Of a stretch of DNA of 64,000 nucleotides, positions 38,819 through 55,395 are shown piece by piece. Positions within the stretch are counted from its first letter, which is position 1; every line of letters starts with the position of its first letter. This DNA is from a virus (Duplodnaviria; Caudoviricetes). The stretch is from positions 207 through 64,206 of IMG/VR virus record IMGVR_UViG_3300032220_000132. One strand, given 5' to 3'. The translations under genes and the position numbers were made by a program. The notes beneath the pieces are model-generated. The model saw only the letters and a list, made by a program, of their open reading frames with translations. It made no database searches and was not told the DNA's origin.

Positions 38819-38847
38819 TTGACATACCCAAAACTCTGATACATACT
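38819..38847 (+). promoter_or_regulatory. Sigma70 promoter of recombination operon
   Basis: TTGACA-17-CATACT. Confidence 0.7.
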
Positions 38848-38877
38848 TGAGTCTAGTTTAACTGCTAGGAGAACTAA

Positions 38878-39105
38878 ATGAAAACAATTCCGTACACCAC
38901 TTCCAAAGGCATTCAGATTGGCTGTCGCTATAACGAATCCCCAAAGCCCATGCCCATCGATGATGAGGACATGATCTATATCCAAAGCCTGTTTATATTT
39001 CCCCCAGAGTGGCATCGCCAACGCAATCTAGAGCGTTTAGTGCTGCTCTCTTGTACTGGGTTTGTCATGCTTCTTGGCATTGTTTTATTGATGACAAGCA
39101 AATGA
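38878..39105 (+). CDS. Hypothetical membrane-anchored protein
   Basis: Leader aactgctaggag; TTSKGIQIGCRY motif; C-terminal TM helix. Confidence 0.7.
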   Translation: MKTIPYTTSKGIQIGCRYNESPKPMPIDDEDMIYIQSLFIFPPEWHRQRNLERLVLLSCTGFVMLLGIVLLMTSK

Positions 39106-39263
39106 GAAAGGGATGGAAGACTCGCATGGATGAGCGCAGATACTTTGAGGAAAAGAAAGAAGAAAGAGACCAGAAGCTCCAGTTCTTTCGCATGATGCGC
39201 CAACATATGTACGAACAAATGCAAGCTGAATTAGCTACAAGGAAAAAACATGAAATTAACTAA
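39102..39263 (+). CDS. Hypothetical protein
   Basis: ATGA overlap, fills operon gap. Confidence 0.5.
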   Translation: MRKGWKTRMDERRYFEEKKEERDQKLQFFRMMRQHMYEQMQAELATRKKHEIN

Positions 39264-40128
39264 CGAATACGGCATCCCACAGACCTTTATCAATGTCTTG
39301 GAACGCCCTACCTATAACAAGGGCAAGGCTCACCTGTCTGCTACCCAGTTGCTCAATAGCCCAAAGATCGTGGCTTTGACCCGTAAGTTTGAGGAAGAGA
39401 TCGAGCAAGATGCCTCGGAGATGGTATGGTCAATAGTCGGATCAGCCATCCATAACTTCTTGGAACAGGGCAAGGATGAGAACCACATTGTCGAGCAACG
39501 CATCCATGTCGAGCATGATGGCTGGCATATCACTGGGGCGATTGACCTACAGGAAGTAGCCACCGATGGAATCCATGTAAAGGACTATAAGTTCACATCC
39601 GTATGGGCTGCTATGAACGAGAAGCCTGAATGGGAGAACCAGTTAAATATCTACGCATGGCTAGTCGAGAAGGTTAAGAAAGTGCCTGTCCAGTCAGTCA
39701 CCATTGTTGCTATGTTGCGTGACTGGAGTAGGCGGGATCGAGAGAAAGAGGGCTACCCTAAAGCCCCTATCCTAGAGATACCCATGAAGTTGTGGACGAT
39801 GCAGGAGCGTGAAGCCTATGTTGCCAAACGAATCTCTTTACACAGTGCCTGCGAGTTCTCGATTGAGACCGATGGCGATCTACCAGACTGTACCCCAGAA
39901 GAGATGTGGGAGAAGCCCACTGTATGGGCGGTGCGTAAGAAAGGAAATGTTAGGGCGAAAGCCTTATATGAATCAGAAGCCCTTGCTACAGTTGCCTTAG
40001 AGCAATACGGCAAGGACTATGAGATCGAAGTGCGTCAGGGCGAGCGTACTCGGTGTGCAAACTTTTGCCCAGTCTCCCAGTACTGCCAACAGTATCGGGA
40101 TTATTTATCAACTAAGGAGAATGTATGA
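39250..40128 (+). CDS. PD-(D/E)xK exonuclease (RecB/Cas4-like)
   Basis: LSATQL, GSAIH, GAID...DYK, QLNIY, C-terminal Cys cluster. Confidence 0.8.
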   Translation: MKLTNEYGIPQTFINVLERPTYNKGKAHLSATQLLNSPKIVALTRKFEEEIEQDASEMVWSIVGSAIHNFLEQGKDENHIVEQRIHVEHDGWHITGAIDLQEVATDGIHVKDYKFTSVWAAMNEKPEWENQLNIYAWLVEKVKKVPVQSVTIVAMLRDWSRRDREKEGYPKAPILEIPMKLWTMQEREAYVAKRISLHSACEFSIETDGDLPDCTPEEMWEKPTVWAVRKKGNVRAKALYESEALATVALEQYGKDYEIEVRQGERTRCANFCPVSQYCQQYRDYLSTKENV

Positions 40129-40268
40129 AGAAGCTAATTGCTGTGGCGTTTATCGCCATGATGTCCACTGGTGTTATGGCTCAAGTTAAGTGCGAGTCTG
40201 ATGGTCGTGGCGGTATGTGCTGTTGGGATACCAAAGTCAATGGTCCATGGAAACCAATCGGCTGTTGA
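40125..40268 (+). CDS. Small secreted Cys-rich peptide (47 aa; not in ORF track)
   Basis: SD aaggag 40114-40119; MKKLIAVAFIAMMSTGVMA signal peptide + QVKCESDGRGGMCCWDTKVNGPWKPIGC. Confidence 0.7.
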   Translation: MKKLIAVAFIAMMSTGVMAQVKCESDGRGGMCCWDTKVNGPWKPIGC

Positions 40269-40269
40269 T

Positions 40270-40476
40270 ATGGGCTACGGCTATGTAATTTGGGATACTG
40301 CCACGGGCATTTATGACGGGGCATATGCCCAAAAAGAAATGGCGATGGAAAGATACTTTTCCATGTTGGAAGAGGATCCAAAAAGAGGCTGGGTGTTGGT
40401 TGAAATAATCTACCCTGAGCATTACAAACTAAGAGACGAAAGGTTTCACGCAATAGTGAAAAAGGACCAATTATGA
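40270..40476 (+). CDS. Hypothetical protein
   Basis: ATG 1 nt after peptide stop (MGYGYVIWDTATG...). Confidence 0.6.
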   Translation: MGYGYVIWDTATGIYDGAYAQKEMAMERYFSMLEEDPKRGWVLVEIIYPEHYKLRDERFHAIVKKDQL

Positions 40477-41177
40477 GTGTGTATAAAAAACTGCAACAGG
40501 CTAGGATGTTGCTACAAGGTACAAAGTTATCCAAATCAGGTAAGAATAAGTTTGCTGGCTATGAGTACTTTGAGTTGGGCGATTTTCTTCCAGCAATTCA
40601 GAAGATATGCCATGACGTAGGGCTGTGTGGTGCTGTATCGTTTACTGAGCATATGGCATACCTTCAGATTAACGATGTAGAGGATGGCACATCCATTATG
40701 TTTACATCGCCCATGAGTTCAGCAGCCCTCAAAGGTTGCCATGATGTACAGAACCTTGGTGCGGTGCAGACATATCTGCGTAGGTATCTGTGGACTAATG
40801 CCTTTGAGATCGTGGAGCATGATGCCTTGGATGCCACCATGGGAGCATCTGAGCCAGTGGCTAAGACTGCTCCAAAGGCAGAACCAAAGCCTGAACCTAA
40901 GAAGCCTGACCCCAAGCCAATCACTGGTGAGAAGGGTGAGTGGCAGATCGTAGCACCAGGAAAACCAGGCGATAACGCAGAGGACTGGCTTGAGTTAATC
41001 AAGACTACCTCGCACCAGTTGCTCGATCTTACTGAGAACGAGGAAGATGTCATGTTGATTTTCAAGAAGAACAAGGTGTTGTTTGACACTGTCAAAGCTA
41101 CCGATGCCACATTCTTCAAGGAAATGATGGGCAAGTTTACTGCCAAGAAAAACGAATTTACTAAGGAGGAAGCGTAA
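40473..41177 (+). CDS. erf: ERF-family ssDNA annealing recombinase
   Basis: VYKKLQQAR...GKNKFAGYEYFELGDF...GAVQTYLRRY. Confidence 0.8.
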   Translation: MSVYKKLQQARMLLQGTKLSKSGKNKFAGYEYFELGDFLPAIQKICHDVGLCGAVSFTEHMAYLQINDVEDGTSIMFTSPMSSAALKGCHDVQNLGAVQTYLRRYLWTNAFEIVEHDALDATMGASEPVAKTAPKAEPKPEPKKPDPKPITGEKGEWQIVAPGKPGDNAEDWLELIKTTSHQLLDLTENEEDVMLIFKKNKVLFDTVKATDATFFKEMMGKFTAKKNEFTKEEA

Positions 41178-41431
41178 TGGCATTTGTACCAAAACCCAAT
41201 ACAGGCACACTGTGGCCTAACGATAAGAAGAAGACCGATAGCCACCCTGATGTACGGGGTGACTTAAATCTTGATCGGTCTTTCCTAAAAGATATGCTTG
41301 CCAAAACGGATGATGACCTTATCAAGGTCTCAATAGCGGGATGGAAGAAAGAGATCAATGGCAAGAAGACTTTGTCAATCTCTGCTTCTGAGCCATATGT
41401 CAAGCCTGTTGATAACGACTTACCTTACTAG
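41177..41431 (+). CDS. Putative ssDNA-binding protein
   Basis: GTLWPNDKK...HPDVRG...IAGWKK, acidic DLPY tail. Confidence 0.65.
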   Translation: MAFVPKPNTGTLWPNDKKKTDSHPDVRGDLNLDRSFLKDMLAKTDDDLIKVSIAGWKKEINGKKTLSISASEPYVKPVDNDLPY

Positions 41432-41439
41432 GAGCAGTC

Positions 41440-41673
41440 ATGGGACGAACTAAAAAGATATACACCTTTGATGATATCAACGCTGAATCTGAGCGATTTG
41501 CAAACTCTGCCAAACAGAAAATTAGTCTGTACAAAGAGTCTCAGCTTCAATCTTTACATGACACCATTGATGTTAAAGATGTTCAGATTGCGGAGTTAAA
41601 CCACCAAATCGTTGGTTACAAGGCGGTGATTTCTTATCTTGAACACCAGTTAGGACTTGGAAAGAGTCAATGA
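41440..41673 (+). CDS. Hypothetical protein
   Basis: SD ctaggag. Confidence 0.6.
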   Translation: MGRTKKIYTFDDINAESERFANSAKQKISLYKESQLQSLHDTIDVKDVQIAELNHQIVGYKAVISYLEHQLGLGKSQ

Positions 41674-42092
41674 AAACGCTTAACTTTGAGGGGGTAAAAG
41701 TTGCCCTCAAACAAGATAAGACGGGTTATGTTCTAACCCTATCCATGCACCCAGACGACATCCCAGAAGACCTTCTTCGGGATTTTGTCGGGGCTAGGTA
41801 TCAGGTAGTTATGGTTAGGATAGGCGGGGATGAAAGCCCGATGGATCGACAGGCTGAGTTTGAAGGCGATAAGTCTATCCGTATGGCTGGCTTACTCTGC
41901 CGAGACCCTAAGTTCTGGAAGTTCTTGTTTGATGATTCTCAGATCTTTGAAGAGGATGAGGAGTCATGCACCGAGTGGTTGCGTGATTACCTAGCCGTTC
42001 AGTCTAGGTCTGAGCTAAAAACCAATGAAGAAGCACGTAAACGATTAGACAAAATATATAGGGAATATAAAGAATGGGCGCAAAAAACTTAG
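41670..42092 (+). CDS. Hypothetical protein
   Basis: ATGA overlap; AGLLCRDPKF...SRSEL motif. Confidence 0.65.
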   Translation: MKTLNFEGVKVALKQDKTGYVLTLSMHPDDIPEDLLRDFVGARYQVVMVRIGGDESPMDRQAEFEGDKSIRMAGLLCRDPKFWKFLFDDSQIFEEDEESCTEWLRDYLAVQSRSELKTNEEARKRLDKIYREYKEWAQKT

Positions 42093-42358
42093 TGCCATAC
42101 TCGGTATACATTCCAGTAGAGATGCATGCAAAGCTGAAAGAGGCAGCCAGAACCCGCAAGGCTTCTGTGCTAATTCGGGATGCCATAACCATGATTATTG
42201 AAGGCAATGAAGCGTACACCAGTGGGTATAACAAAGCCCTTAAGGATGCATCGCAATTAGTCTACGACTGTGAAGAAGCCCAGATGGTAGCCATAAAAGG
42301 GAAAGACCTTGGCTCGATCTTGACTGACAGGATTGAATCGCTGGAGATTAAGAAATGA
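42074..42358 (+). CDS. Ribbon-helix-helix-like DNA-binding protein
   Basis: YSVYIPVEMHAKLK...ASVLIRDAI. Confidence 0.55.
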   Translation: MGAKNLVPYSVYIPVEMHAKLKEAARTRKASVLIRDAITMIIEGNEAYTSGYNKALKDASQLVYDCEEAQMVAIKGKDLGSILTDRIESLEIKK

Positions 42359-42540
42359 CCGATCAAGATAAAGAATACCTAGAGTCTCTCTATGCAGGAT
42401 TTGCCATGATTGGCTTTTTAATGAATGGGAATTATTCTGTAGAGGAAATACCCAGCAGATCTAAATCTCTGGCAAAAGCTATGATTGAACCAGAGGTTAC
42501 TGTTGGGTTGCCAGCCATTAAAAGGAAGCGTACAAAATGA
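42355..42540 (+). CDS. Hypothetical protein
   Basis: ATGA overlap. Confidence 0.6.
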   Translation: MTDQDKEYLESLYAGFAMIGFLMNGNYSVEEIPSRSKSLAKAMIEPEVTVGLPAIKRKRTK

Positions 42541-42710
42541 TAGTCACTGTTCTTAATATGTTTGCCCTGTTTGTGGCTACCTGTGCGGTGCTGATCTTTG
42601 CCGTAGTCTTTGCGTTTTTCCTGTTCATTATGTATGCCTGTATACACATTGGCTGGAGAGAGATCAAAGGGATGCCGTTGTCTGAGTTGTGGGAGAGGAT
42701 TCAAAAATGA
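42537..42710 (+). CDS. Small membrane protein (57 aa; not in ORF track)
   Basis: MIVTVLNMFALFVATCAVLIFAVVFAFFLFIMYAC...; ATGA overlaps at both ends. Confidence 0.65.
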   Translation: MIVTVLNMFALFVATCAVLIFAVVFAFFLFIMYACIHIGWREIKGMPLSELWERIQK

Positions 42711-42997
42711 ACAATGAACCAGTAGCGTGGATGTCAAACGGAAAAGAGTTTTATGTTCAGAAGAATTACTGCCCTGACTTTATTCCACTCTATAACCATC
42801 CAGTATCCAAAGCAAAAGATAGATTTCCTAACTATGAATCAATCTGCCTTCAATGTGGCACAACAATTTATAAGCCAGCGTTTAAGACACTAACAGATGA
42901 GGAAATAGAAGAAATTTATTACAAAGACTTTAACCATGATGGTGAAGATATGCTTGAGTTTGCTAGAGCAATACTAAGAAAGGCACAAGAGAAATGA
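42707..42997 (+). CDS. Hypothetical protein ending ILRKAQEK
   Basis: MNNEPVAW...LTDEEI...FARAILRKAQEK. Confidence 0.65.
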   Translation: MNNEPVAWMSNGKEFYVQKNYCPDFIPLYNHPVSKAKDRFPNYESICLQCGTTIYKPAFKTLTDEEIEEIYYKDFNHDGEDMLEFARAILRKAQEK

Positions 42998-43191
42998 ACG
43001 CATACGAATTAGCAGACCAAGTTGAAATGTGGGGAGAGGACTTGCTTGCCTTGAACATGAAAGGGGGCATTCCTGTTATAGAAGGTGCAAAGATGCTCCG
43101 CCACCAAGCAGACTACATTGCCCAGCTAGAAAAGGGGCTGGAGTCGAGCATAGCGATGAATAAGGCACAGGCAGAACGGCAAGAAAAATGA
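42994..43191 (+). CDS. Hypothetical protein
   Basis: MNAYELAD...MLRHQAD; ends RQEK. Confidence 0.65.
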   Translation: MNAYELADQVEMWGEDLLALNMKGGIPVIEGAKMLRHQADYIAQLEKGLESSIAMNKAQAERQEK

Positions 43192-43346
43192 GAAAGGTGA
43201 GCATACGAACAGTTGAAAATACTATTGGGCTGGCACGTAGTGTTGCTAATGGAACAACCAAGTTCCCGTTTATGGGCTATTGCGCAGACCTGATGGAAAA
43301 GATGTTAGAAGAGATTAAACAAGCAAGAAAGGCACAAGAGAAATGA
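43188..43346 (+). CDS. Hypothetical protein (52 aa; not in ORF track)
   Basis: MRKVSIRTVE...QARKAQEK; ATGA overlaps. Confidence 0.6.
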   Translation: MRKVSIRTVENTIGLARSVANGTTKFPFMGYCADLMEKMLEEIKQARKAQEK

Positions 43347-43579
43347 AAACTATAATTCATGTAAATCAACATGAAGTTAAGGCTAATTCTAAAAACGGGA
43401 CTGACAACCCTGTGCTTACTATAAAAACGTACAAGAGTAATACTTATGCCCACGAGGTAGCAATTAAAGGTGAAAGCAAGGTAGTGTATTCGCCTGATAA
43501 ACCATTACCTTGTGGTGCTAAAGTATGGATAGAAACTAACTCACCAGTGGAGATACTAAGAAAGGCACAAGAGAAATGA
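43343..43579 (+). CDS. Conserved phage hypothetical protein
   Basis: IIHVNQH...PVLTIK...YSPDKPLPCGAKVWIET. Confidence 0.7.
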   Translation: MKTIIHVNQHEVKANSKNGTDNPVLTIKTYKSNTYAHEVAIKGESKVVYSPDKPLPCGAKVWIETNSPVEILRKAQEK

Positions 43580-43788
43580 CCACTTTTACCACTGAAGATC
43601 GTGAAAATGCCTCACCCCCACATATTGTGGACACAGGCGCTAGTTATGAACCTATCCCATTTGCTGGTCTGGTAGCCTTACAGGACAAAGAAGATACCGA
43701 ACAGATGCTCCGAGAGCAACTGCATGTTGTTCAGGCTGAGTGCCAAAGACTCCAAGCCATATTAAGACAAGCTGGGATCCCGTATTAA
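43576..43788 (+). CDS. Hypothetical protein
   Basis: MTTFTTEDR; ATGA overlap. Confidence 0.6.
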   Translation: MTTFTTEDRENASPPHIVDTGASYEPIPFAGLVALQDKEDTEQMLREQLHVVQAECQRLQAILRQAGIPY

Positions 43789-43940
43789 TATGAACAGAAT
43801 GGAAGAAGAGTTTAACCAATGGGCTATAAATAATATAGAGCCATGGCCTCATCCCCAAAAGATCCTGCAAAATTATTGGATCGTCTGGCAAGCAGGGTGG
43901 AATCGGGCATACAATGTATCCTCTAGTGTGAGGGTCAGCG

Positions 43941-44126
43941 ATGAAGACGATGGTAGATGTTAATAAAACAACTGGGTTTGAAGCAGAATTAACCCATGAA
44001 GAGATAGCCAAGGAGATGGGCATATCTCGTGCTTATGTATCCCATTTGGAGAAGATTGCCTTAGATAAGATTAGACGAGCTTTAAGAGCTCGCTATGACG
44101 TTTATGCCCCAGATGATCTTATATGA
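43941..44126 (+). CDS. Sigma70 region-4-like HTH protein
   Basis: LTHEEIAKEMGISRAYVSHLEKIALDKIR. Confidence 0.7.
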   Translation: MKTMVDVNKTTGFEAELTHEEIAKEMGISRAYVSHLEKIALDKIRRALRARYDVYAPDDLI

Positions 44127-44416
44127 CCATCTACCGCAATAAGAAGCTCCTAGAGTCCGTTAGAACCAGCCCATGCCAGAACTGTGGCAAACAAGACGGG
44201 ACAGTCTGCGCTGCACATTCAAACCAGCTCCGTGACGGAAAAGGGAGATCCCTCAAGTCCCACGATTACCGCATCGCAGCATTATGTTTTCGGTGTCATT
44301 CCAATCTGGATCAGGGCTACCAGATGAGCAAAGAAGAACGTACCGAGCTTTGGGAAGAGGCGCACCGCAAGACGATTGGCTGGCTCTTTGAGAACGGAAT
44401 AATTGATATAAAATAA
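44123..44416 (+). CDS. HNH-like Zn-binding nuclease (DUF968/DUF1364-like)
   Basis: PCQNCG...AAHSN...ALCFRCH. Confidence 0.65.
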   Translation: MTIYRNKKLLESVRTSPCQNCGKQDGTVCAAHSNQLRDGKGRSLKSHDYRIAALCFRCHSNLDQGYQMSKEERTELWEEAHRKTIGWLFENGIIDIK

Positions 44417-44420
44417 AATC

Positions 44421-44541
44421 GTATGCTTGGTGTCTTTCAATAAGGCTGACCCCTAACCCCATGTTAGGGGGGTTTGAATACCAAGTAGTTGGTGTTGAGC
44501 CCCAATAGACTACACGAAAAGCTCCTTAGACCCAAGCATAC
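44421..44541 (+). ncRNA. Putative structured ncRNA 1
   Basis: Closing stem gtatgcttgg(t)gtct/agacccaagcatac; inner cccctaac/gttagggg and gtagt/actac stems; strand uncertain. Confidence 0.45.
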
Positions 44542-44553
44542 AACTACTAAATA

Positions 44554-44583
44554 TTGACACTTTTTTTTGATTTGTGCTATATT
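44554..44583 (+). promoter_or_regulatory. Sigma70 promoter of small RNA
   Basis: TTGACA-18-TATATT with extended -10 TG. Confidence 0.75.
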
Positions 44584-44588
44584 TAGTG

Positions 44589-44712
44589 CACCAGCCCACA
44601 CTGGTATCGCACGTTCTCCACTCCTAGCAGATTGGTTTTGTGCAAAGCAAGCCCTCGGTGAACACACTCACCTCAAAACCCCCAGGCTCACACTCCTGGG
44701 GGTTTTTCTTTT
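44589..44712 (+). ncRNA. Putative antisense small RNA (seed CUCCUAGCAG)
   Basis: Promoter upstream, four hairpins, intrinsic terminator aaaacccccagg/cctgggggtttt 44675-44706, no credible ORF. Confidence 0.65.
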
Positions 44713-44726
44713 GTGAAAAAAAATTG

Positions 44727-44755
44727 TTGCAAATTTATTTCTGTTGGTTTAATCT
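44727..44755 (+). promoter_or_regulatory. Putative sigma70 promoter of replication operon
   Basis: TTGCAA-17-TAATCT, A-tract upstream. Confidence 0.5.
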
Positions 44756-44760
44756 AGTCG

Positions 44761-45005
44761 TGCTAGGAGAATTACGAGAACGTGTGAAAGGCATAACTGC
44801 CTCTTCACTCTTCGTAACTCTCCACAGCTACACCATATAGGTCGGACATAACAACAGCTATATGGGAAGACCCCCTACTGTGGGATTAGATCTGAAACAG
44901 GGGAAAGGATGGCGAAGCCAGAGTCCTAGATCGAACGTCTGGCGGGTGCAGTGGCTCCGAAAAGCAACTGTTGAAGGCACACCTAGGAGAGGCTAGGTGC
45001 GTCCA
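44761..45005 (+). ncRNA. Long structured 5' leader of replication operon
   Basis: Long hairpin 44766-44823; ccatatag/ctatatgg; tggc-gaa-gcca; cacctag/ctaggtg. Confidence 0.5.
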
Positions 45006-45049
45006 CCAAAAAGCAACTCTTCTTACTTGACTGTATTACTTACTTAACT

Positions 45050-45208
45050 ATGACCAAATATGAGATAAGAGATGAGACAGGCGACCTGATGCGAATAGTC
45101 GGGCGCTTAGAAGAAGCCAAGAGTTTAATCGCTGTGCGTAAGGGCTGGTCGTACAAGCGAGTGAAGGACCATAAACCAGCCTTTGTGTTTGAAGAAGCCC
45201 CATTTTAA
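45050..45208 (+). CDS. Hypothetical protein (52 aa; not in ORF track)
   Basis: MTKYEIRDETGDLMRIV...FEEAPF. Confidence 0.55.
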   Translation: MTKYEIRDETGDLMRIVGRLEEAKSLIAVRKGWSYKRVKDHKPAFVFEEAPF

Positions 45209-45218
45209 GGAGAGTGTT

Positions 45219-45623
45219 ATGAAAATGACTGTAGAGTTCAATAGTATTGCGGACATGGCAAACTTTTCTGCCTTTGTCAATCAGCGTTTAGAAGAAGATG
45301 CAAAAGTCAGAGAGTTAAATCAATTGCGAGGACAACTGGATTTAGCCAAGCAACAACTGGAACGTGCCTATGCCCGCTTGCGTTTTAAGGATGACAAGGA
45401 CAACGAGAAGACTTATGCGATCTCGCTTGATGATCTGCCACTAAAAGTCCGAACCTACAACTGTTTGATAGCAGAAGGATGCCAAAATGTTGGTGATGTT
45501 GTGGCATTGTTCCAAAAAAACCAATTGCGTAAAATCCCAAACTTTGGCAACGGCAGTTTCAGTAATCTCAAAAGAGTCTTTGCCGAACAATTAAAAATAA
45601 CCCTTGATCGGAAACAAGCATGA
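45219..45623 (+). CDS. Protein with RNA polymerase alpha-CTD-like domain
   Basis: SD aaggag; LDDLPLKVRTYNCL...GDV...LRKIPNFGNGS. Confidence 0.75.
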   Translation: MKMTVEFNSIADMANFSAFVNQRLEEDAKVRELNQLRGQLDLAKQQLERAYARLRFKDDKDNEKTYAISLDDLPLKVRTYNCLIAEGCQNVGDVVALFQKNQLRKIPNFGNGSFSNLKRVFAEQLKITLDRKQA

Positions 45624-46489
45624 AGAAACTAAATATACTCAACATCCGCACTGATGGGGGCACTCAGCCCCGTGTCCAACTGGATCAAGACCTAGTCAAA
45701 GAATATGCCGAGGTCATGCGTGAGGGAGTCGTTTTCCCACCAGTAGAAGTATTCCATGATGGCTCAGAATACTGGCTAGTCGATGGATTCCATCGCTACT
45801 TTGGTTATAAAGCTAATGGTTTAACCAGTATCGAAGCGATTGTCCATACTGGCACACTGCGTGAAGCCCAGTTTTACGCATGGAAAGCCAACAACAAGCA
45901 TGGCAACCGCCTTAAAGCCGAAGATATCCGTGCCATTCTCCGCATCATGCTTGTCGATGAGGTATATAGCAAATGGTCAAACAACCATATTGCTAAGGAA
46001 CTAGGTATTTCCAGCATGACTGTTGGGCGTGTGCGGGTAGCAATGCAAGAAGAAGCTAAAACCCCAGCCCAAACTTCTGTTACTTATGTCGATAAGCATG
46101 GCAACACAACCACCATGAAGACCGATAAAAAGAAGAAAAAGGCTACAACCAAAGCTCCAACTACTAAACCTGATGTCACCACCGAAAGCCCAACCGCAGA
46201 ACTAGAGCAAAAGGTAAACGAATTAACCGATACAGTGAACTCACTGGCAGACGAAAACACCCTACTGCGGGATAAGATTGCCATCGGACAGTGGGATGCC
46301 TCAGAAATTGAGAAGATCGATGCTGAGCAGACCATCAAAGACTTGCGTGAGCAGATCCGAGTATTGGAAATTGAGAACAAATCATTGCGTGAAGGCAGAG
46401 ATATGTATCAGAACCGCAACTCCGAGTTAATGAAGACTGTTAAATCATTAACCAGCAGGCTAAAGAAATTTGAAAAGGAGACTGCATGA
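45620..46489 (+). CDS. ParB N-terminal-domain protein with HTH and coiled coil
   Basis: GTQPR...FPPVEVF...LVDGFHRY; WSNNHIAKELGISSMTVGRVR. Confidence 0.75.
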   Translation: MKKLNILNIRTDGGTQPRVQLDQDLVKEYAEVMREGVVFPPVEVFHDGSEYWLVDGFHRYFGYKANGLTSIEAIVHTGTLREAQFYAWKANNKHGNRLKAEDIRAILRIMLVDEVYSKWSNNHIAKELGISSMTVGRVRVAMQEEAKTPAQTSVTYVDKHGNTTTMKTDKKKKKATTKAPTTKPDVTTESPTAELEQKVNELTDTVNSLADENTLLRDKIAIGQWDASEIEKIDAEQTIKDLREQIRVLEIENKSLREGRDMYQNRNSELMKTVKSLTSRLKKFEKETA

Positions 46490-46650
46490 CCGACTACTCC
46501 GATGTATGCACAGCGATCAAGCATACGATCCGCACCGCATACGAACTAGCCAATGAAAGGAAGATAAAAGAGGCTTTGGAAGAAGCCCGATTCCTTTCTG
46601 CGTTGGCAACACAGTTAGAAGAAGCACTTAAAAAAGAACTGGGCAAATAA
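46486..46650 (+). CDS. Hypothetical protein (54 aa; not in ORF track)
   Basis: SD aaggag, ATGA overlap; MTDYSDVCTAIK... Confidence 0.6.
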   Translation: MTDYSDVCTAIKHTIRTAYELANERKIKEALEEARFLSALATQLEEALKKELGK

Positions 46651-46697
46651 CTGCCCAAGCCCAAGTTAGGGGGGAATCCTAACAGTTAGGAGTATTT

Positions 46698-48179
46698 ATG
46701 CAGTCTTTAGAATTGCGTGAGCATCAACTCAACGTGGTCGATGCTCTACGAGATGGATTTAAACGTGGTCATAGATCGCAATTGCTTTATGCACCAACAG
46801 GATTTGGAAAGACTGAGGTAGCCATCTACCTTATGAAAGCCACATCTGATAACTACAAACGAACATCCATGGTCCTAGATCGGGTGGTGCTGGTCGATCA
46901 AACCAGTATGCGCCTGACCAAGTATGGCATCAAGCATGGTGTATTCCAAGCTGACCATTGGATGTTTGACCGCCACAACCGCATTCAGGTATGTTCTGCC
47001 CAAACCCTAGAACGCAGATCTGACTTCCCAGAGGTCGATTTGATGATCGTGGACGAGTGCCATATCGCTAGGAAGCAGACATCTGACTTTATCCTGAACA
47101 ATCCCAACATCAAAGTCATAGGGCTCACCGCAACCCCATTTACCAAAGGATTGGGGGATCTCTATACCAATGTGGTGTGTGGCGCAACCACCGAAGATCT
47201 AGTCAATAAGAAGTGGCTGACCCCCTTGAAAGTCTATATCGCCAAAGAGATAGACATGACTGGGGTAAAGAAGGTCGCTGGTGAGTGGTCGGCAGATCAA
47301 GTAACAGAACGAGGGATGCGTATTACTGGCGATATTGTGGATGAATGGATCAAAAAGACCCATGAAATCTATGGCAAACCCATGAAGACCATCGTTTTTT
47401 GTTCAGGTGTAGCCCATGGCGCAGACCTTGTAGAGCAGTTTGCTATCAAGGGATACAACTTTGTCTCAATATCCTACAAGGATAATGACGATTTTAAAAA
47501 GGCAGCGATTGAGGATTTTGCCAAGCCCGATACCCAGATCAACGGGCTGATCGCCACCGACATCCTGACCCGTGGCTTTGATGTCTCGGATGTAATGATC
47601 GGAGTTTCTGCCCGACCCTTTTCCAAATCCCTGTCATCCCACATCCAACAGATGGGGCGTGTAATGCGAACCCACGAAGGCAAGGAGTTTGCCCTGTGGC
47701 TTGATCATTCGGGCAACTACATTCGTTTTCGAGAGGATTGGGATGAAATATACGAAGATGGGGTGCGTTCTTTGCGTGGCAAACAGGAAAAAGCCAAGAA
47801 AGAACCCACTGAGAAGATCAAAAATGAGTCCAAATGCCCATCCTGTGGGTATTTATGGCCCAAAAACAGCGATACCTGCCCTGCCTGTGGTCATGTCCGT
47901 AAGAGACGCAACCATGTTGATGCTGTGGCAGGTGAGTTAATCGAACTGGTAGCGGGCGTAAAAGCAAGAAAAGATGATAAGCAGATCTTTTACTCTGAAC
48001 TTTTGTATATCGCACAGCAAAGAAGTTACAACCCCAACTGGGCAAGTCATAAGTATCGGGAGAAGTTTGGGGTATGGCCTAAAGGATTAGCGGATACCAC
48101 CATTCCCCCATCCATCAATACCCAAAAGTGGATCAGGAGTAAAGACATTCAATGGGCAAAAAGGAGAGATAGGGCATGA
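46698..48179 (+). CDS. SF2 DExH helicase with C-terminal Zn finger (RadD/YejH-like)
   Basis: APTGFGKT, DECH, LTATP, QMGRVMR, CPSC...CPAC. Confidence 0.9.
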   Translation: MQSLELREHQLNVVDALRDGFKRGHRSQLLYAPTGFGKTEVAIYLMKATSDNYKRTSMVLDRVVLVDQTSMRLTKYGIKHGVFQADHWMFDRHNRIQVCSAQTLERRSDFPEVDLMIVDECHIARKQTSDFILNNPNIKVIGLTATPFTKGLGDLYTNVVCGATTEDLVNKKWLTPLKVYIAKEIDMTGVKKVAGEWSADQVTERGMRITGDIVDEWIKKTHEIYGKPMKTIVFCSGVAHGADLVEQFAIKGYNFVSISYKDNDDFKKAAIEDFAKPDTQINGLIATDILTRGFDVSDVMIGVSARPFSKSLSSHIQQMGRVMRTHEGKEFALWLDHSGNYIRFREDWDEIYEDGVRSLRGKQEKAKKEPTEKIKNESKCPSCGYLWPKNSDTCPACGHVRKRRNHVDAVAGELIELVAGVKARKDDKQIFYSELLYIAQQRSYNPNWASHKYREKFGVWPKGLADTTIPPSINTQKWIRSKDIQWAKRRDRA

Positions 48180-48952
48180 GAAGAAACTATCCAGCACGAA
48201 TACATTTGAAATGTGAAGTTTGTGAAACAGAATTTACAAGACCGCCAAGCCTTGTTAAAAAGGTTAAACGATCCTTTTGTAGCAAAACCTGTGCAGATAT
48301 AGCGCAAACTACCGCACCAAGATTTGATTTTAAGTGCGAGGTATGCAAGAAAGTTTTTAGAGATACCAAAGATCATGGTGCTGACAGGCGTTTTTGTAGC
48401 CGTGAATGTTTTTGTGCTAACGCACCAGACCTATCTGAAAGAGACTGCCCTCAGTGTGGTGTTTTATTTAAGCCACATAAATCATCACATACAGAAGAAA
48501 GGGCAAGTAAATATTGTTCTAAAAAGTGCTACACAGAAAGCCAAAAGACTGGTGAAGAAGTGTCATGCTTAAATTGTGGAAAACTTTTTTATACCAATCC
48601 AAGCCATTCAAACACTTGCTGTTCCATAAAATGCAGTAGCGAGCATTACAGAGGGTCAACTTCTCATATGTGGAAAGGTGGGAAATATGTCGCTGAAACC
48701 ACAGGGCATAAGTTTGTGGCATTAGAACGACCTGACAGGGTAGGGAAGTATGTTGCAGAACACAGAATGGTAGCCATGCGACAGATTGGAAGATTGCTAG
48801 AGCAATACGAAAAGGTAATTCACCTTAACAATTTGCCTGACGATAACAGACCTGAAAATCTATACATATGTGGCACAAATAGTCATATGAGAAAACTATT
48901 TAATGGCACTCTGCCATGGCCTAAGAAAAGCAACTTAAAGGAATACAAGTAA
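48176..48952 (+). CDS. HNH homing endonuclease-like protein with tandem CxxC...CS..C repeats
   Basis: Four Zn-finger repeats; AEHRMV...IHLN..PDDNRPENL. Confidence 0.75.
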   Translation: MRRNYPARIHLKCEVCETEFTRPPSLVKKVKRSFCSKTCADIAQTTAPRFDFKCEVCKKVFRDTKDHGADRRFCSRECFCANAPDLSERDCPQCGVLFKPHKSSHTEERASKYCSKKCYTESQKTGEEVSCLNCGKLFYTNPSHSNTCCSIKCSSEHYRGSTSHMWKGGKYVAETTGHKFVALERPDRVGKYVAEHRMVAMRQIGRLLEQYEKVIHLNNLPDDNRPENLYICGTNSHMRKLFNGTLPWPKKSNLKEYK

Positions 48953-49758
48953 TGAGGTTTGAAGACTTTGCCCGATCCCATGGGCTGATTATCAACAGTG
49001 TTGTTCCTTTTAAATGGGTAGCAACCCCAACAGATGACCATCCACATAAGCGTAATGGGCGCTATAAATTCATGGGTGATGTTGGCTGGGTGCAAAACTG
49101 GGCAACCATGGATAAGCCAAGTATGTGGCGCAATAATGGAAATTATGCGACAACCCCACAGTTTCTAAAACTGCGAGACCAAGAAGACCAAAAACGCAAG
49201 GCTTTGGCTGATCGTGCTTGTGCAAAAGCAGGCTGGATCATGCACCAGACTGAAGTTATGCACCATCCATATCTGTTAAAAAAAGGTTTTCCAGACGAGA
49301 AAATGCCCGTGCATGACGGCAAATTAGTAGTGGCGATGCGGAAAGATGGAAAAATAGTAGGATGCCAACTCATCAATGACGAGGGGGATAAGAAGTTTCT
49401 CTATGGTCAGCAGACGAAGGGGGCAACTTTCACCTTTGATGCAAAAGGTGTCCCGATCTTCTGCGAGGGTTTGGCTACGGGCTTGTCTATTCAGGCGGTA
49501 ATGAGAGCCAATAAAATGCGATACACAATCCATGTTTGCTTTAGTGCAGGCAACCTCAAGGAAGTAGCAAGGCTTATCCCCAATGGGATAGTCGTGGCTG
49601 ACAATGACCCCAGTGGTGTCGGAGAAAGAATCGCCAAAGAGACAGGCAAACCTTATTGGATCAGCGACACAATCGGGCATGATTTCAATGATGACTATGT
49701 TGCTCATGGTCTATTTAGGATGTCCCAATCCCTCAAAAAGGTGTTGATAGGCAGATAA
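48952..49758 (+). CDS. Toprim-domain DNA primase
   Basis: HPYLLKKG, CQLI...GDKKF, CEGLATG, FSAGNL, ADND, DFND. Confidence 0.85.
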   Translation: MRFEDFARSHGLIINSVVPFKWVATPTDDHPHKRNGRYKFMGDVGWVQNWATMDKPSMWRNNGNYATTPQFLKLRDQEDQKRKALADRACAKAGWIMHQTEVMHHPYLLKKGFPDEKMPVHDGKLVVAMRKDGKIVGCQLINDEGDKKFLYGQQTKGATFTFDAKGVPIFCEGLATGLSIQAVMRANKMRYTIHVCFSAGNLKEVARLIPNGIVVADNDPSGVGERIAKETGKPYWISDTIGHDFNDDYVAHGLFRMSQSLKKVLIGR

Positions 49759-49761
49759 TAT

Positions 49762-49793
49762 AGAAAAACCCCCAGTCTTACGGCACTGGGGGT
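49762..49793 (-). terminator. Intrinsic terminator of leftward early operon (possibly bidirectional)
   Basis: acccccagt/actgggggt stem with U tract on - strand. Confidence 0.8.
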
Positions 49794-49815
49794 ATCTATT
49801 TACTGCTAGGTAAAT

Positions 49816-49962
49816 CTAATTAGGTTTTGGATCTTTCTTTTCCTCTAACTCCTCAACCCGCTTAATTAGGGTATCAACTCGGTCATTCCACAACTGGGAA
49901 TCCACCGACTGAGGCCATGTAATTAAGTGTTCTTTTATAAGTTCTAAGATACTTTTAGGCAT
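49816..49962 (-). CDS. Early hypothetical protein (48 aa; not in ORF track)
   Basis: MPKSILELIKEHL...; ATGCCTAA overlap. Confidence 0.55.
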   Translation of the reverse strand: MPKSILELIKEHLITWPQSVDSQLWNDRVDTLIKRVEELEEKKDPKPN

Positions 49963-50128
49963 TCGGATCTACCTCATCTAATCCGTAAACCTCAACAATT
50001 TCCCAGTTATCTACATCCTTGGGATTAGCCACATCCATCCCATATTCTTCAGGATCTTCCCCATTTGGCACATCCACCTCAACATAGGTAGTCCCAATAA
50101 ATTTGACACTCATTCCATATCTACGCAT
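49955..50128 (-). CDS. Early acidic hypothetical protein
   Basis: YVEVD motif; start approximate. Confidence 0.55.
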   Translation of the reverse strand: MRRYGMSVKFIGTTYVEVDVPNGEDPEEYGMDVANPKDVDNWEIVEVYGLDEVDPNA

Positions 50129-50304
50129 GATTCTTCCTTTATTCCACATACACACAAATAAACACCTTTACAGTCAGGATCAAACCCAAAACTCTTGGCA
50201 AGATCATCCCAATCCCTTGGCACTATCTCAGGATCAACATACATCCACCCACCCTTGGGTAAAACTGTATATCCCGCTTGTTCTACCTCTTGTTGGTTAA
50301 GCAT
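50110..50304 (-). CDS. Early hypothetical protein
   Basis: MLNQQEVEQAG; ATGCTTAA overlap with SD gaggag. Confidence 0.6.
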   Translation of the reverse strand: MLNQQEVEQAGYTVLPKGGWMYVDPEIVPRDWDDLAKSFGFDPDCKGVYLCVCGIKEESCVDME

Positions 50305-50452
50305 CTTGCATCTCCTCAACTCTGACATACTCAGGTGTCTCAAAATGATCCCATGTAGATTGCTCGTATGCTTTACTAATCGCACTATCTTGATCTTTAG
50401 CATCAACTTCTACATACCCATACGATACAAACACAACTGTATATTTAGGCAT
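50297..50452 (-). CDS. Early hypothetical protein (51 aa; not in ORF track)
   Basis: MPKYTVVFVSYGYVEVDAKDQDSAI...; SD gaggag. Confidence 0.65.
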   Translation of the reverse strand: MPKYTVVFVSYGYVEVDAKDQDSAISKAYEQSTWDHFETPEYVRVEEMQDA

Positions 50453-51086
50453 CTTCCATCTCCTCAAGTTCTTTCTTCTTGGCGATCAACTGGGCAGAAA
50501 GTTCAGCATCATCCTTTTCTTTCAAGGTTTCTTCCAGTTCCTCGATCTCATCAGCAAGTTCTTGCATAGCCCATTCTTTCATGCTCTCGGTGATGCCAAA
50601 CTCAAGGTCAATGTTATCGGGGATATTGTTTTTGACATCCAACCAATTACCGCTAATGTCATAGGTCTCATCTGAACCATCCACATATTGACCGCAAAAG
50701 CAACAACCGCCCTCATAGTAAAGAGCATTCACCCCATAACCTTGATCTACCAGTTTGTCAAAGATTCCAGTAGGCGGAGACCACGCAGTGGCGAATGATG
50801 CTCTGATCTCATTTTCCTGAATATCAATGTAGGCTTCATCCGTAGTAATCTCCCACTTTGTTCCCCAGTTCTGAACCCGCCAATCCCACCATGCTGATTC
50901 AGGATTAACTGGATCGTCATTACCCTTGATACTGGGGAATGTCGGCTTGACCTTTACCTTGGTGTAATCAGGCTCAGGATGGATAGTTCCAAAGAATTTG
51001 TTTGCTTTCCACGCATCCACAAGAACCTGAATCTTCTTGGGATCATCATGGGTTATATATACAGTGTTATCGCACCAATTAGGCAT
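50445..51086 (-). CDS. DUF1281/YubB-like ferredoxin-fold protein
   Basis: MPNWCDN...WWDWRVQNWGTKW...FATAWSPP...YYEGGCCFCG. Confidence 0.8.
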   Translation of the reverse strand: MPNWCDNTVYITHDDPKKIQVLVDAWKANKFFGTIHPEPDYTKVKVKPTFPSIKGNDDPVNPESAWWDWRVQNWGTKWEITTDEAYIDIQENEIRASFATAWSPPTGIFDKLVDQGYGVNALYYEGGCCFCGQYVDGSDETYDISGNWLDVKNNIPDNIDLEFGITESMKEWAMQELADEIEELEETLKEKDDAELSAQLIAKKKELEEMEDA

Positions 51087-52392: not shown

Positions 52393-52408
52393 AACATTCT
52401 CCTAGCAG

Positions 52409-53093: not shown

Positions 53094-53112
53094 ATCCATC
53101 TCCTAGCAGTTT

Positions 53113-55045: not shown

Positions 55046-55062
55046 ATTAAATCTCCTAGCAG

Positions 55063-55351: not shown

Positions 55352-55395
55352 TATTTTCTCCTAGTAGTCGAATCGGTGTTTAAGCACCTACCGAC

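What the first reader, a model, noticed from the sequence alone, without database searches (positions are those of the whole stretch)
44589..44712. Small RNA displaying CUCCUAGCAG, antisense to the RBS of several early genes
Seen: promoter TTGACA-18-TATATT (44554-44583), then ~120 nt with no credible ORF, ending in a strong terminator. CTCCTAGCAG (44621-44630) sits in a loop closed by cca/tgg and gcac/gtgc. Perfect 10-nt targets cover the SD at 38862-38871 (+) and at 52399-52408, 53100-53109 and 55053-55062 (-). There is a 9/10 match at 55358-55367 and 7-nt matches at 52729-52735 and 41428-41434. The late-gene SDs I inspected lack the CUGCU extension. Inference: a trans-acting translational repressor.
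Basis: partly seen in the sequence, partly recalled or inferred. Interest (0 to 1): 0.88.

Follow-up and report, generated by a model that had tools for sequence, protein, structure and literature searches.

The report
Phage antisense RNA with anti-RBS loop
An uncultivated 64-kb phage carries a ~120-nt small RNA whose hairpin loop is complementary both to the ribosome-binding sites of several early genes and, over about 20 co-evolving base pairs, to the start of the neighbouring replication-operon transcript, which makes it a likely RNA regulator of the phage's own gene expression.

Summary
CTCCTAGCAG (44621-44630) lies in a stand-alone unit flanked by the best sigma-70-like promoter and best terminator of the 19 kb scanned. 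Its complement sits exactly on the SD of four early genes, with a 9/10 match on a fifth.

In 18 distinct variants from related phages the 9-mer UCCUAGCAG never changes. The four-hairpin fold persists even where the hairpin sequences have been replaced. CUGCUAGGAG stays in front of 4-5 mostly non-homologous early genes per genome.

The strongest new result concerns a different target. The 5' arm and loop of hairpin 2 pair over 17-24 bp with the 5' end of the adjacent transcript (44760-44787). That transcript is the leader of an operon carrying a Betaproteobacteria-1 RNA and ParB-like, helicase and primase genes. The pairing co-varies in about ten sequence classes: same-class duplexes score -24.7 to -35.6 kcal/mol, non-cognate ones average -23.2.

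My reading is a trans-acting antisense RNA with a class-specific primary target (the replication-operon leader) and a universal anti-SD seed for tagged early cistrons. Nothing shows transcription. The effect on early mRNAs is supported by enrichment and conservation, not by covariation.

The parts
44554..44583 (+). Promoter of the small RNA: TTGACA, 18-nt spacer, TG-extended TATATT
   Evidence: Best-scoring promoter-like site in 38300-57200, 11 of 12 plus TG. In relatives the hexamers and the TG are kept while the spacer sequence changes at constant length.
44590..44712 (+). Small RNA (sRNA1), about 123 nt: hairpin 1, hairpin 2 with the seed loop, an invariant single-stranded stretch, hairpin 3 and the terminator. 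The 5' end is inferred from the promoter.
   Evidence: Fold -42.7 kcal/mol, z -4.52. Six variants fold into the same four-hairpin layout, z -4.3 to -6.6. No Rfam family matches at E<=1.
44621..44630 (+). Seed CUCCUAGCAG in the apical part of hairpin 2. Positions 44622-44630 (UCCUAGCAG) are invariant.
   Evidence: Identical in 16 of 16 distinct variants and in two more distant ones. It is the only 10-mer of the RNA with 4 complementary sites elsewhere.
44606..44620 (+). Variable 5' arm of hairpin 2, the class-specific part that pairs with the neighbouring leader
   Evidence: This arm and the 3' side of the same hairpin are the most variable parts of the RNA among close relatives. It co-varies with 44770-44787.
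44675..44706 (+). Intrinsic terminator of sRNA1, followed by TTTTTCTTTT through 44712
   Evidence: Best terminator-like site of the region. Replaced by a different hairpin plus T-run in L431 and L432.
44727..44755 (+). Second promoter (P2): TTGCAA, 17 nt, TAATCT
   Evidence: Read. The -35 hexamer is identical in 9 of 9 close relatives; the -10 hexamer in 8 of 8 of them, its first base falling outside that alignment. Equivalent hexamers occur in L431 (TTGCAA/TAACCT) and L432 (TTGCAG/TATACT). It falls below the 9-of-12 cut-off.
44760..44787 (+). 5' end of the P2 transcript, GUGCUAGGAG-aauuac-GAGAACGUGUG. This is the bipartite target of the sRNA1 loop and 5' arm.
   Evidence: Cognate duplex -33.8 kcal/mol, 21 Watson-Crick plus 2 G-U pairs. 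Co-varies in about ten classes.
44766..44823 (+). Leader hairpin of the P2 transcript. Its 5' arm is the sRNA1 target, and the first six bases remain single-stranded.
   Evidence: MFE -26.3 kcal/mol. The same hairpin is kept in 8 distinct leader variants despite many changes on both arms.
44831..44947 (+). Betaproteobacteria-1 RNA motif (RF02932) inside the P2 leader
   Evidence: 98.3 bits against a gathering score of 49.4, full length.
38862..38871 (+). CUGCUAGGAG on the SD of the first gene of the rightward early operon (ATG 38878), just after promoter 38819-38847
52399..52408 (-). CUGCUAGGAG on the SD of the 159-aa gene 52392-51913, after a twin-hairpin module
53100..53109 (-). CUGCUAGGAG on the SD of the 94-aa gene 53093-52809, directly after a hammerhead-like element
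55053..55062 (-). CUGCUAGGAG on the SD of the 129-aa gene 55045-54656, after a twin-hairpin module
55358..55367 (-). CUACUAGGAG (9/10) on the SD of the first gene of the leftward early operon (ATG 55351)
   Evidence: The orthologous sites in G002 and G001 are exact 10-mers.

Best explanation
sRNA1 (44590-44712, + strand) is a phage-encoded, trans-acting antisense RNA. It is made by host RNA polymerase from its own near-consensus promoter and ended by its own terminator. Hairpin 2 presents CUAGC(A) in a six-base loop.

(1) Primary, class-specific target. The loop contacts the free 5' end (GUGCUAG) of the transcript from the next promoter, P2. Pairing then spreads along the 5' arm of that transcript's leader hairpin and gives an interrupted duplex of 17-24 bp. 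That transcript carries a Betaproteobacteria-1 RNA and leads into a small ORF, an RNAP alpha-CTD-like gene, and ParB-like, helicase, HNH and primase genes. The pairing is inferred from covariation. Its consequence is inferred only; I favour repression, by removal of the protective 5' hairpin or by cleavage of the duplex by a double-strand-specific RNase. In one relative, where a protein gene follows P2 directly, the same pairing would cover that gene's SD.

(2) Universal seed. The invariant UCCUAGCAG, 10 nt in this phage (-16.8 kcal/mol), pairs with (A)ACUGCUAGGAG. This tag covers the SD 6-8 nt before the start codon of the first cistron after each early promoter, hammerhead or hairpin module. 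That would block 30S binding and shut down a set of early genes as sRNA1 accumulates. This step is inferred from enrichment and conservation.

The rapid, matched divergence of arm and leader resembles antisense-based immunity or incompatibility determinants.
For: Unit
- Best promoter and best terminator of 19 kb, in + orientation.
- Hexamers and TG are conserved over a variable spacer.
- Length changes that are not multiples of 3 exclude coding.
- The same four-hairpin fold appears in 6 of 6 variants folded separately. This includes L431 and L432, where hairpin 3 and the terminator have different sequences and hairpin 1 differs in L432 and gains a base pair in L431.
- Two hairpin-1 pairs changed on both sides in 3 of 16 sequences.

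Leader pairing
- 17 distinct arm/leader combinations form duplexes of 13-24 Watson-Crick pairs.
- In the 15 x 15 matrix, 13 of 15 arms pair best with the leader of their own sequence class. Same-class values are -24.7 to -35.6 kcal/mol; non-cognate values average -23.2, sd 4.4.
- The first seed position co-varies with the leader: C-G (GGAG), U-A (GGAA in L008 and L313), A-U (GGUA in L302/L312, GGAU in L432).
- The duplexes hold 25 G-U pairs against 2 A-C/C-A single mismatches. This fits RNA pairing of the + strands.
- In L306 two G-U pairs keep the helix intact.
- In L311 the leader is replaced by a protein gene's start region, and 12 bp of pairing cover its SD.

Early RBS
- 4 exact sites plus one 9/10 site in the window, all at SD position in the two early operons.
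- Five relatives carry 5-6 exact copies each, against 0 for the backwards-read control.
- In the three of them whose sites I printed, 14 copies lie before genes, 13 with ATG or TTG 6-8 nt downstream.
- In the two most distant genomes, 10 of 10 GCTAGGAG sites are preceded by CT, and 9 of those 10 precede genes.
- In those two genomes the leader starts GGGCUAGG. The seed's last A and G therefore have no partner in the leader, yet they are conserved.
Against: - No call shows that the RNA exists. The RNA-library runs gave only assembled contigs, without strand or ends.
- Fold energies do not tell the strands apart; the - strand folds as well or better.
- The early-RBS tag never varies, so no covariation supports that pairing. 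In phages with a U or A at the first seed position the mRNAs keep GGAG, which gives a G-U wobble or a mismatch.
- The leader site shares 9 of 10 bases with the mRNA tag. Most of the seed is therefore already explained by leader pairing.
- The seed's outer bases also pair with each other inside hairpin 2, which could explain their conservation.
- L308 is a natural recombinant with a non-matching arm and leader (-24.0 kcal/mol, rank 6 of 15).
- Forcing the leader's first 26 nt open did not disrupt the three helices of the Betaproteobacteria-1 motif in a thermodynamic fold. The downstream effect of pairing therefore has no computational support.
Confidence: 0.54

Rival explanations
1. sRNA1 regulates only the P2 leader. 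The early-gene CUGCUAGGAG tag exists for another reason, such as a binding site for a phage or host protein, a processing signal, or a portable RBS cassette spread by recombination. Its match to the seed is then a by-product of the leader carrying a similar sequence.
For: Covariation is seen only for the leader. The leader site and the mRNA tag share 9 of 10 bases. The conserved AA in front of the tag does not extend pairing with sRNA1 contiguously, because the A next to the tag faces an A (read). The tag always follows RNA-structure modules that could carry it as a cassette.
Against: CUGC is not needed for SD function. By my own comparison it does not extend pairing to the 16S rRNA 3' end (recalled sequence, not tested here). 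No protein partner is known. The seed's last two bases are invariant even where the leader cannot pair with them. A perfect 9-10 bp match over the SD is physically there whatever its origin.
Confidence: 0.25
2. One reading: sRNA1 is mainly a global translational repressor of early genes, and the leader complementarity is secondary.
For: There are 4-5 tagged early cistrons per genome in all 11 related records checked. The seed 9-mer is invariant in 18 variants.
Against: The variable part of sRNA1 tracks the leader, not the mRNAs. Leader duplexes are about twice as stable as the 10-mer duplex, about -33 against -16.8 kcal/mol.
Confidence: 0.1
3. One long read-through transcript folds so that 44606-44630 pairs in cis with 44760-44787. 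This forms a long-range helix, for example a processing site that excises the small RNA. No trans regulation is involved.
For: The two arms are 130 nt apart on the same strand. Covariation cannot distinguish cis from trans pairing.
Against: A strong terminator and a separate conserved promoter lie between the arms. Each arm already has a conserved local partner: hairpin 2 for one, the leader hairpin for the other.
Confidence: 0.07
4. It is not an RNA regulator. The motif acts on the - strand as the RBS of the 9-codon GTG ORF, or at the DNA level as inverted binding sites for a protein.
For: On the - strand, CTGCTAGGAG is followed 7-11 nt later by GTG and 9 codons in the variants carrying an exact 10-mer. 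The - strand folds as well as the + strand.
Against: No - strand promoter-like site lies in 44400-45200, and all neighbouring genes are on the + strand. On the - strand the T-run after the terminator hairpin is only TTTT. One variant changes Gly to Trp in the 9-codon ORF. The distal arms change sequence completely between classes while staying complementary; a protein-binding site would be expected to keep its sequence. G-U pairs outnumber A-C mismatches 25 to 2 in the + orientation.
Confidence: 0.04

Closest known systems
c4 antisense RNA of phages P1 and P7 (immI region)
   Same: A small phage RNA whose loop-displayed sequences pair with complementary sites around a ribosome-binding site on the same strand nearby. 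Matched differences between RNA and target give heteroimmunity between related phages (passages of review PMC12197685 read; further detail recalled).
   Different: No sequence or structure match to any Rfam family other than RF02932 at E<=1. sRNA1 has its own promoter and terminator, whereas c4 is processed from the target's operon transcript (recalled). Its target leader precedes a replication operon, not an antirepressor. It also matches 4-5 RBSs located 6-10 kb away.
IS10 RNA-OUT / RNA-IN
   Same: The loop of a stable antisense hairpin pairs first with the extreme 5' end of the target RNA and pairing then spreads (mechanism recalled). Here the loop CUAGC(A) faces the free GUGCUA 5' tail of the leader.
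   Different: RNA-OUT is encoded opposite its target and is fully complementary to it. sRNA1 is encoded on the same strand upstream and pairs in two blocks separated by a bulge.
Plasmid copy-number antisense RNAs (ColE1 RNA I, R1 CopA) and their incompatibility classes
   Same: A constitutive small hairpin RNA pairs with the 5' leader of the replication transcript. Co-divergence of RNA and target defines specificity groups (recalled). Here about ten arm/leader classes sit upstream of a helicase-primase operon.
   Different: Those RNAs are cis-antisense. No origin or plasmid lifestyle has been shown for this phage.
P22 sar RNA, lambda OOP RNA
   Same: Phage antisense RNAs that lower expression of a phage gene by base pairing with its mRNA (P22 sar with ant mRNA, blocking translation initiation; lambda OOP antisense to cII) (review PMC12197685, passages read).
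   Different: As recalled, both are encoded opposite their target; the review's table lists sar as trans and OOP as cis. Each has a single target.
T4 RegA and RegB (proteins)
   Same: Both give post-transcriptional shut-off of many early mRNAs through their start regions or GGAG SD sequences (recalled; the T4 review PMC3014915 was seen only in the listing).
   Different: They are proteins, not an RNA, and there is no homology.

Membership tests
Any described RNA family in Rfam 15, including the antisense RNA families of phages P1/P7 | Match to the family covariance model | tested here: not met
   cmscan of 44400-45250 at E<=1 returns only RF02932 at 44831-44947. Nothing covers 44590-44712. The whole-window gathering scan gives the same result.
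Trans-encoded base-pairing sRNA | Own promoter and Rho-independent terminator with a U-tail | tested here: met
   Best promoter and terminator of the region, conserved in relatives.
Trans-encoded base-pairing sRNA | A conserved, exposed seed with short imperfect complementarity to several mRNAs at their start regions | tested here: met
   UCCUAGCAG is invariant in 18 variants and lies in the apical loop region. There are 4 exact and 1 near-exact SD sites in the window.
Trans-encoded base-pairing sRNA | The RNA is expressed and changes target expression; chaperone dependence | not testable with these tools
   Only contigs of RNA libraries were available, with no strand or ends.
Cis-antisense RNA (RNA-OUT, CopA, sar, OOP type) | Transcribed from the strand opposite its target, hence fully complementary | tested here: not met
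   The sRNA1 promoter and terminator are on the same strand as all targets' genes or leaders. Pairing is 9-10 nt for the mRNAs, or two blocks with a bulge for the leader.
Antisense RNA / target pair (generic) | Compensatory changes that keep intermolecular pairing | tested here: met
   Leader target: 13 of 15 arms pair best with their own class. One base pair is seen as C-G, U-A and A-U. For the mRNA targets this could not be assessed, because they never vary.
Betaproteobacteria-1 RNA (RF02932), for the neighbouring RNA | Score above Rfam's gathering threshold over the full model | tested here: met
   98.3 bits against 49.4, model positions 1-120.
Hammerhead ribozyme, for the element before the target at 53100 | Core CUGANGA ... 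GAAA ... UH with three helices; match to an Rfam model | tested here: inconclusive
   The core and helices can be read by eye at 53218-53113 (-). No Rfam hit at E<=1 in the window. The compact version in relative L029 matches RAGATH-1 hammerhead at 27.7 bits, E 0.0048, below the gathering score of 56.3.

The most novel reading that the evidence does not exclude
sRNA1 is the hub of an RNA-only control circuit in a group of freshwater phages.

- A constitutive small RNA silences every early cistron that carries a common ribozyme- or hairpin-delimited leader tag.
- Through a fast-evolving specificity arm, it also gates the replication operon of phages of its own class only.
- It would thus act as an RNA immunity or incompatibility determinant with about ten natural specificity classes.

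One phage sRNA with both a universal anti-SD seed for its own early genes and a class-specific replication-leader target is, as far as I know, not in print. This rests on one full-text search and passages and part of the sRNA table of review PMC12197685.
Probability: 0.3. Interest if true: 0.88.

Novelty: new variant of a known kind. Interest (0 to 1): 0.78.

Why it matters
Few phage-encoded small RNAs are known, and most of those act on host genes or on a single phage gene (passages and part of the sRNA table of review PMC12197685). This case would differ in three ways.

- It would be a phage sRNA that controls the phage's own programme at two levels: a set of early cistrons, and the replication operon.
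- It comes with a natural series of about ten co-evolved RNA/target specificity classes. That is a ready-made set of compensatory mutants for testing RNA-based immunity or incompatibility.
- It gives a first functional context to the orphan Betaproteobacteria-1 RNA, which sits here inside the regulated leader and, in five Burkholderiales genomes, directly after a gene ending in a Toprim-like motif; in the one locus annotated this is the primase of a homologous prophage replication module.

The tagged leaders lie directly after hammerhead-like ribozymes and covarying hairpins. This suggests that RNA processing and sRNA control are coupled.

Tried and rejected
- Public RNA runs. Seven runs held 5-10% of the sampled words of 44300-45300, and four were laid. 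All are assembled contigs, so neither strand, ends nor transcription can be read. A 211-nt contig of RNA run X7 covers 44841-45050. Two contigs of 117-118 nt of run X2 (labelled RNA-Seq but probably DNA) cover 44577-44692 and carry the L008-type seed. Stretches without cover are not evidence.
- Phage GenBank collection: no match to 44400-45200 in distant mode.
- Rfam: no family for sRNA1 and no hammerhead at E<=1 in 52300-55500.
- Strand by folding energy: not discriminating.
- Effect of leader opening on the Betaproteobacteria-1 fold: the three motif helices stay, so I make no claim.
- Full-hairpin duplexfold ranking of all 89 start regions. The four tagged genes rank 1, 2, 5 and 9, but unrelated long-loop duplexes intrude. 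I relied on exact-match statistics instead.
- Second conserved single-stranded stretch (GCAAGCCC, 44647-44654). Its complement occurs 3 times in the window (one is the RNA's own site), none near a start codon. No phage target was found.
- RNAalifold on MAFFT alignments shows few compensatory pairs inside sRNA1: 0 of 27, 3 of 26 and 6 of 26 pairs. The helices are invariant among close relatives and misaligned in the distant ones, so I used separate folds instead.
- The count of structure pairs was not used for the intermolecular helix, because the MAFFT columns of the distal arm are out of register between classes. I used cognate against non-cognate energies instead.
- A 14-mer scan of viral contigs gave more than 112 mostly unrelated hits and was useless.
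- The first genome contigs pattern found nothing. The second gave 120 or more rows, mostly chance. Of 14 sources scanned (13 of them from this search), 5 held RF02932.
- Literature. 'Betaproteobacteria-1' is found in 3 unrelated papers. The paper that defined the motif and its supplements were not seen; what I say about it is recalled.
Full report
**Source.** The window is nearly all of a 64,206-bp IMG/VR virus record with direct terminal repeats, rated 100% complete. A crude in-house gene call and profile searches give this layout:
- Presumed virion and packaging genes on the + strand up to 38343; this block was not run against the profile libraries.
- A rightward early operon from 38878. It holds an exonuclease, an Erf-like annealing protein, small ORFs and an HNH gene ending at 44416.
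- A 766-nt gene-free stretch, 44417-45182.
- An operon with a 52-codon ORF, an RNAP alpha-CTD-like protein (45219-45623), and ParB-like, helicase, HNH and primase genes, up to 49758.
- A leftward operon of small genes of unknown function, 55351 down to 49816.

Calling the two small-gene operons 'early' is an inference from their sigma-70-like promoters and gene content.

**Observation.**
- The promoter at 44554-44583 (TTGACA, 18 nt, TG-extended TATATT) and the terminator at 44675-44706 are the top-scoring promoter-like and terminator-like sites of 38300-57200.
- The 123-nt RNA between them folds at -42.7 kcal/mol, z = -4.52.
- CTCCTAGCAG (44621-44630) has exact complements at 38862 (+) and at 52399, 53100 and 55053 (-). 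There is a 9/10 site at 55358.
- All five lie 6-7 nt before a start codon.
- The count with up to 1 mismatch is not significant: 9 against 4.1 expected, and 4 of 100 shuffles reach 9.
- The exact count is significant. About 0.12 occurrences are expected for a 10-mer, and the reversed control occurs 0 times. No other 10-mer of the RNA has more than 2 complementary sites.
- CTAGGAG occurs 14 times in the window. The 7 copies that serve as SDs of real genes all lie in the two early operons. The 4 late-region TAGGAG SDs that I inspected lack CTGC.

**The RNA is conserved as an RNA.**
- Pattern and protein searches brought in related phage contigs from IMG/VR and from metagenomes. They are 71-99.8% identical to the window in this region.
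- Upstream of the promoter the sequence is mosaic. The -35 and -10 hexamers and the TG are kept, while the spacer changes at constant length.
- Sixteen distinct variants were aligned, and two more distant ones, L431 and L432, were read. All keep UCCUAGCAG.
- Lengths vary from 115 to 129 nt, which excludes the overlapping ORFs.
- Six variants folded separately give the same layout, with z -4.3 to -6.6: hairpin 1, hairpin 2 with a six-base loop around CUAG, an invariant single-stranded CAAnGCAAGCCC, hairpin 3 and a terminator.
- In L431 and L432, hairpin 3 and the terminator have different sequences but are still hairpins; hairpin 1 differs in L432 and gains a base pair in L431.
- Alignment-based counts are modest, with 3 of 26 and 6 of 26 pairs changed on both sides. 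Close relatives do not vary in the helices, and MAFFT misaligns the distant ones.

**A second, co-varying target.**
- Among close relatives the most variable parts of sRNA1 are the two sides of hairpin 2 that flank the seed; the 5' side is 44606-44620.
- That 5' side, together with the seed, is an inverted repeat of 44760-44787. This stretch lies immediately after a second conserved promoter (TTGCAA, 17 nt, TAATCT, 44727-44755) and is therefore the 5' end of the next transcript.
- The two arms change together. The window has CACGUUCUC pairing with GAGAACGUG. Other classes show CACAAUCUUUCCA/UGGAAAGAUUGUG, CACAUUUUCUCCA/UGGAGAAAAUGUG, CACGAUAAAU/AAAUAUCGUG, CACACAUGUCC/GGACAUGUGUG, CACUAGCCAUGUAU/AAUAUGGUUAGUG, CACGUCAACU/AGUUGACGUG, and more.
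- Duplexes of the 17 distinct arm/leader combinations have 13-24 Watson-Crick pairs and score -19.6 to -35.6 kcal/mol.
- In the 15 x 15 matrix, 13 of 15 arms bind best to a leader of their own class. Non-cognate pairs average -23.2, sd 4.4.
- The two exceptions are informative. L308 is a recombinant of one class's arm with another's leader (-24.0). In L311 the P2 leader is replaced by a protein gene's start region, and 12 bp of pairing (one G-U) cover its SD.
- The first seed base co-varies with the leader as C-G, U-A and A-U.
- G-U pairs (25) far outnumber A-C single mismatches (2). In L306 two G-U pairs keep the helix. This favours RNA pairing of + strand transcripts over a DNA-level repeat.
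- The leader folds into its own long hairpin (44766-44823). The hairpin is kept by many two-sided changes in 8 variants and leaves GUGCUA free at the 5' end. That is the geometry of loop-to-5'-end antisense recognition.

**What the leader leads to.**
- The leader hairpin is followed by a full-length Betaproteobacteria-1 RNA at 44831-44947 (98.3 bits) and then by the operon that ends with the primase gene.
- In five Burkholderiales genomes (Variovorax twice, Paraburkholderia, Comamonas, Achromobacter) the same RNA family lies directly after a gene whose 3' end reads like a Toprim-type primase, and no sRNA1-like unit is seen in the 420 nt upstream, which are taken up by that gene.
- In the Comamonas locus, the only one annotated, the context is a prophage module: ParB-like, helicase, primase, then the RNA, then NinB and NinG. 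It matches the same helicase and primase families as the window's module.
- The RNA family therefore goes with this replication module. The sRNA1 partnership was seen only in the window's phage group.

**The early-gene tag.**
- Five relatives carry 5-6 exact copies of CTGCTAGGAG each, one being the small RNA's own complement. In the three whose sites I printed, 14 copies lie before genes, 13 with ATG or TTG 6-8 nt downstream and one with ATC. In the two most distant genomes there are 9 more.
- The genes behind the tag often differ between phages, although the upstream module is the same.
- Three contexts recur:
  - directly after an early promoter;
  - after a pair of hairpins whose stems co-vary;
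  - after ...GUC UUUGUC AAA(A), the 3' end of a hammerhead-like element.
- In the window the hammerhead core CUGAAGA ... GAAA ... GUC and three helices can be read at 53218-53113 (-), but Rfam finds nothing at E<=1.
- The compact version in a relative scores 27.7 bits (E 0.0048) against RAGATH-1 hammerhead, below its threshold. G011 shows two compact copies with CUGAUGAG ... CGAAAC ... GUC (read by eye).
- The tag never varies, so base pairing with sRNA1 cannot be tested by covariation.
- Three points favour a real interaction:
  - CUGC is not explained by SD function.
  - Its complement GCAG is invariant in sRNA1.
  - In L431 and L432 the leader begins GGGCUAGG, so the seed's final A and G have no partner in the leader, yet they are kept.
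- Two points weigh against it. Those bases also pair within hairpin 2. The leader shares 9 of 10 bases with the tag.

**Mechanism.**
- I commit to a trans-acting antisense RNA with two target types, as stated under Best explanation.
- Supported here by comparison: the transcription signals, the conserved fold, the invariant seed, leader pairing with covariation, and the placement and conservation of the tag on early SDs.
- Inferred: that the RNA is made, that pairing represses, and that early mRNAs are regulated.
- A duplex over positions about -16 to -7 lies within the region a 30S subunit covers (established knowledge, recalled). The 10-bp duplex is worth -16.8 kcal/mol.

**Comparison with known systems.**
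- In function it is closest to P1/P7 c4 RNA: loop-displayed antisense sequences, RBS occlusion, and heteroimmunity through matched RNA/target differences (review PMC12197685, passages read).
- In pairing geometry it is closest to IS10 RNA-OUT (recalled).
- In logic it resembles plasmid copy-control antisense RNAs (recalled).
- It is not a member of any Rfam family, and it is not cis-antisense.
- One full-text search and the passages and part of the sRNA table that I read in that review show no phage sRNA described as acting on several of its own early RBSs. This is a limited search.

**Earlier notes of this scan.** I saw them, after I had found the leader pairing. They independently list the leader complementarity, the hammerhead, the twin hairpins and a parS site. 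I tested the first, partly tested the next two, and did not test the last.

**Verdict.** The feature is real and interesting: a new, unrelated example of loop-mediated antisense control, with an unusual double target set and a natural series of specificity classes. It awaits any expression data.

Noticed in passing
window 53113-53218 (-); L029 1416-1496; G011 near 204 and 2219 (loci L433, L437): A hammerhead-like self-cleaving element lies directly before the tagged RBS. Core and helices are readable by eye in the window, with a large stem III insert. The compact relative scores below threshold for RAGATH-1 hammerhead (27.7 bits, E 0.0048). Cleavage would leave UUUGUCAAACUGCUAGGAG as the 5' end.
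   Followed up: partly
window 52409-52473 and 55063-55129 (-); relatives: A repeated intergenic module sits before tagged RBSs: GAGUGAUAC, a long hairpin, and a second short hairpin (GAUUGUC/GGCAAUC, GAUUGUU/AACAAUC, GAUUAUCA/UGAUAAUC) whose stems change on both sides. It looks like an RNA processing or stability element.
   Followed up: partly
window 44831-44947 (+); L199, L211, L192, L227, L253: Betaproteobacteria-1 RNA (RF02932) goes with a phage replication module. In five Burkholderiales genomes it follows a gene ending in a Toprim-like motif; in Comamonas, the only locus annotated, that gene is a primase in a ParB-like-helicase-primase prophage module followed by NinB and NinG. Its function is unknown.
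   Followed up: partly
window 45219-45623 (+): A 134-aa phage protein with a bacterial RNA polymerase alpha C-terminal domain (Pfam PF03118, E 6e-12). It is the first sizeable gene of the sRNA1-targeted operon.
   Followed up: no
window 44641-44654 (+): A single-stranded CAAAGCAAGCCC between hairpins 2 and 3 is nearly invariant, even in the most distant variants. Its complement has no site near a phage start codon. It may be a protein-binding site or a seed for host targets.
   Followed up: partly
L311 (metagenome contig), downstream of the sRNA1 terminator: In this relative the P2 promoter is followed directly by a small protein gene (SD GGGAG, ATG) instead of the leader hairpin and Betaproteobacteria-1 RNA. 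The sRNA1 seed region pairs over its SD.
   Followed up: partly
L308 (metagenome contig): A natural recombinant carrying the hairpin-2 arm of one class with the leader of another. This suggests exchange within the invariant spacer between them.
   Followed up: no
window 45050-45208 (+): A 52-codon ORF without an obvious SD lies between the structured leader and the alpha-CTD-like gene. It is kept in several relatives and replaced by other sequence in L013 and L014.
   Followed up: no
window 24691-38343 (+): A single 4550-codon ORF follows the presumed virion genes.
   Followed up: no
G002 27364 (locus L044): The ortholog of the window's gene at 38878 has ATC where the window has ATG, behind an exact tag. 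This is either an unusual start codon or a sequence error.
   Followed up: no
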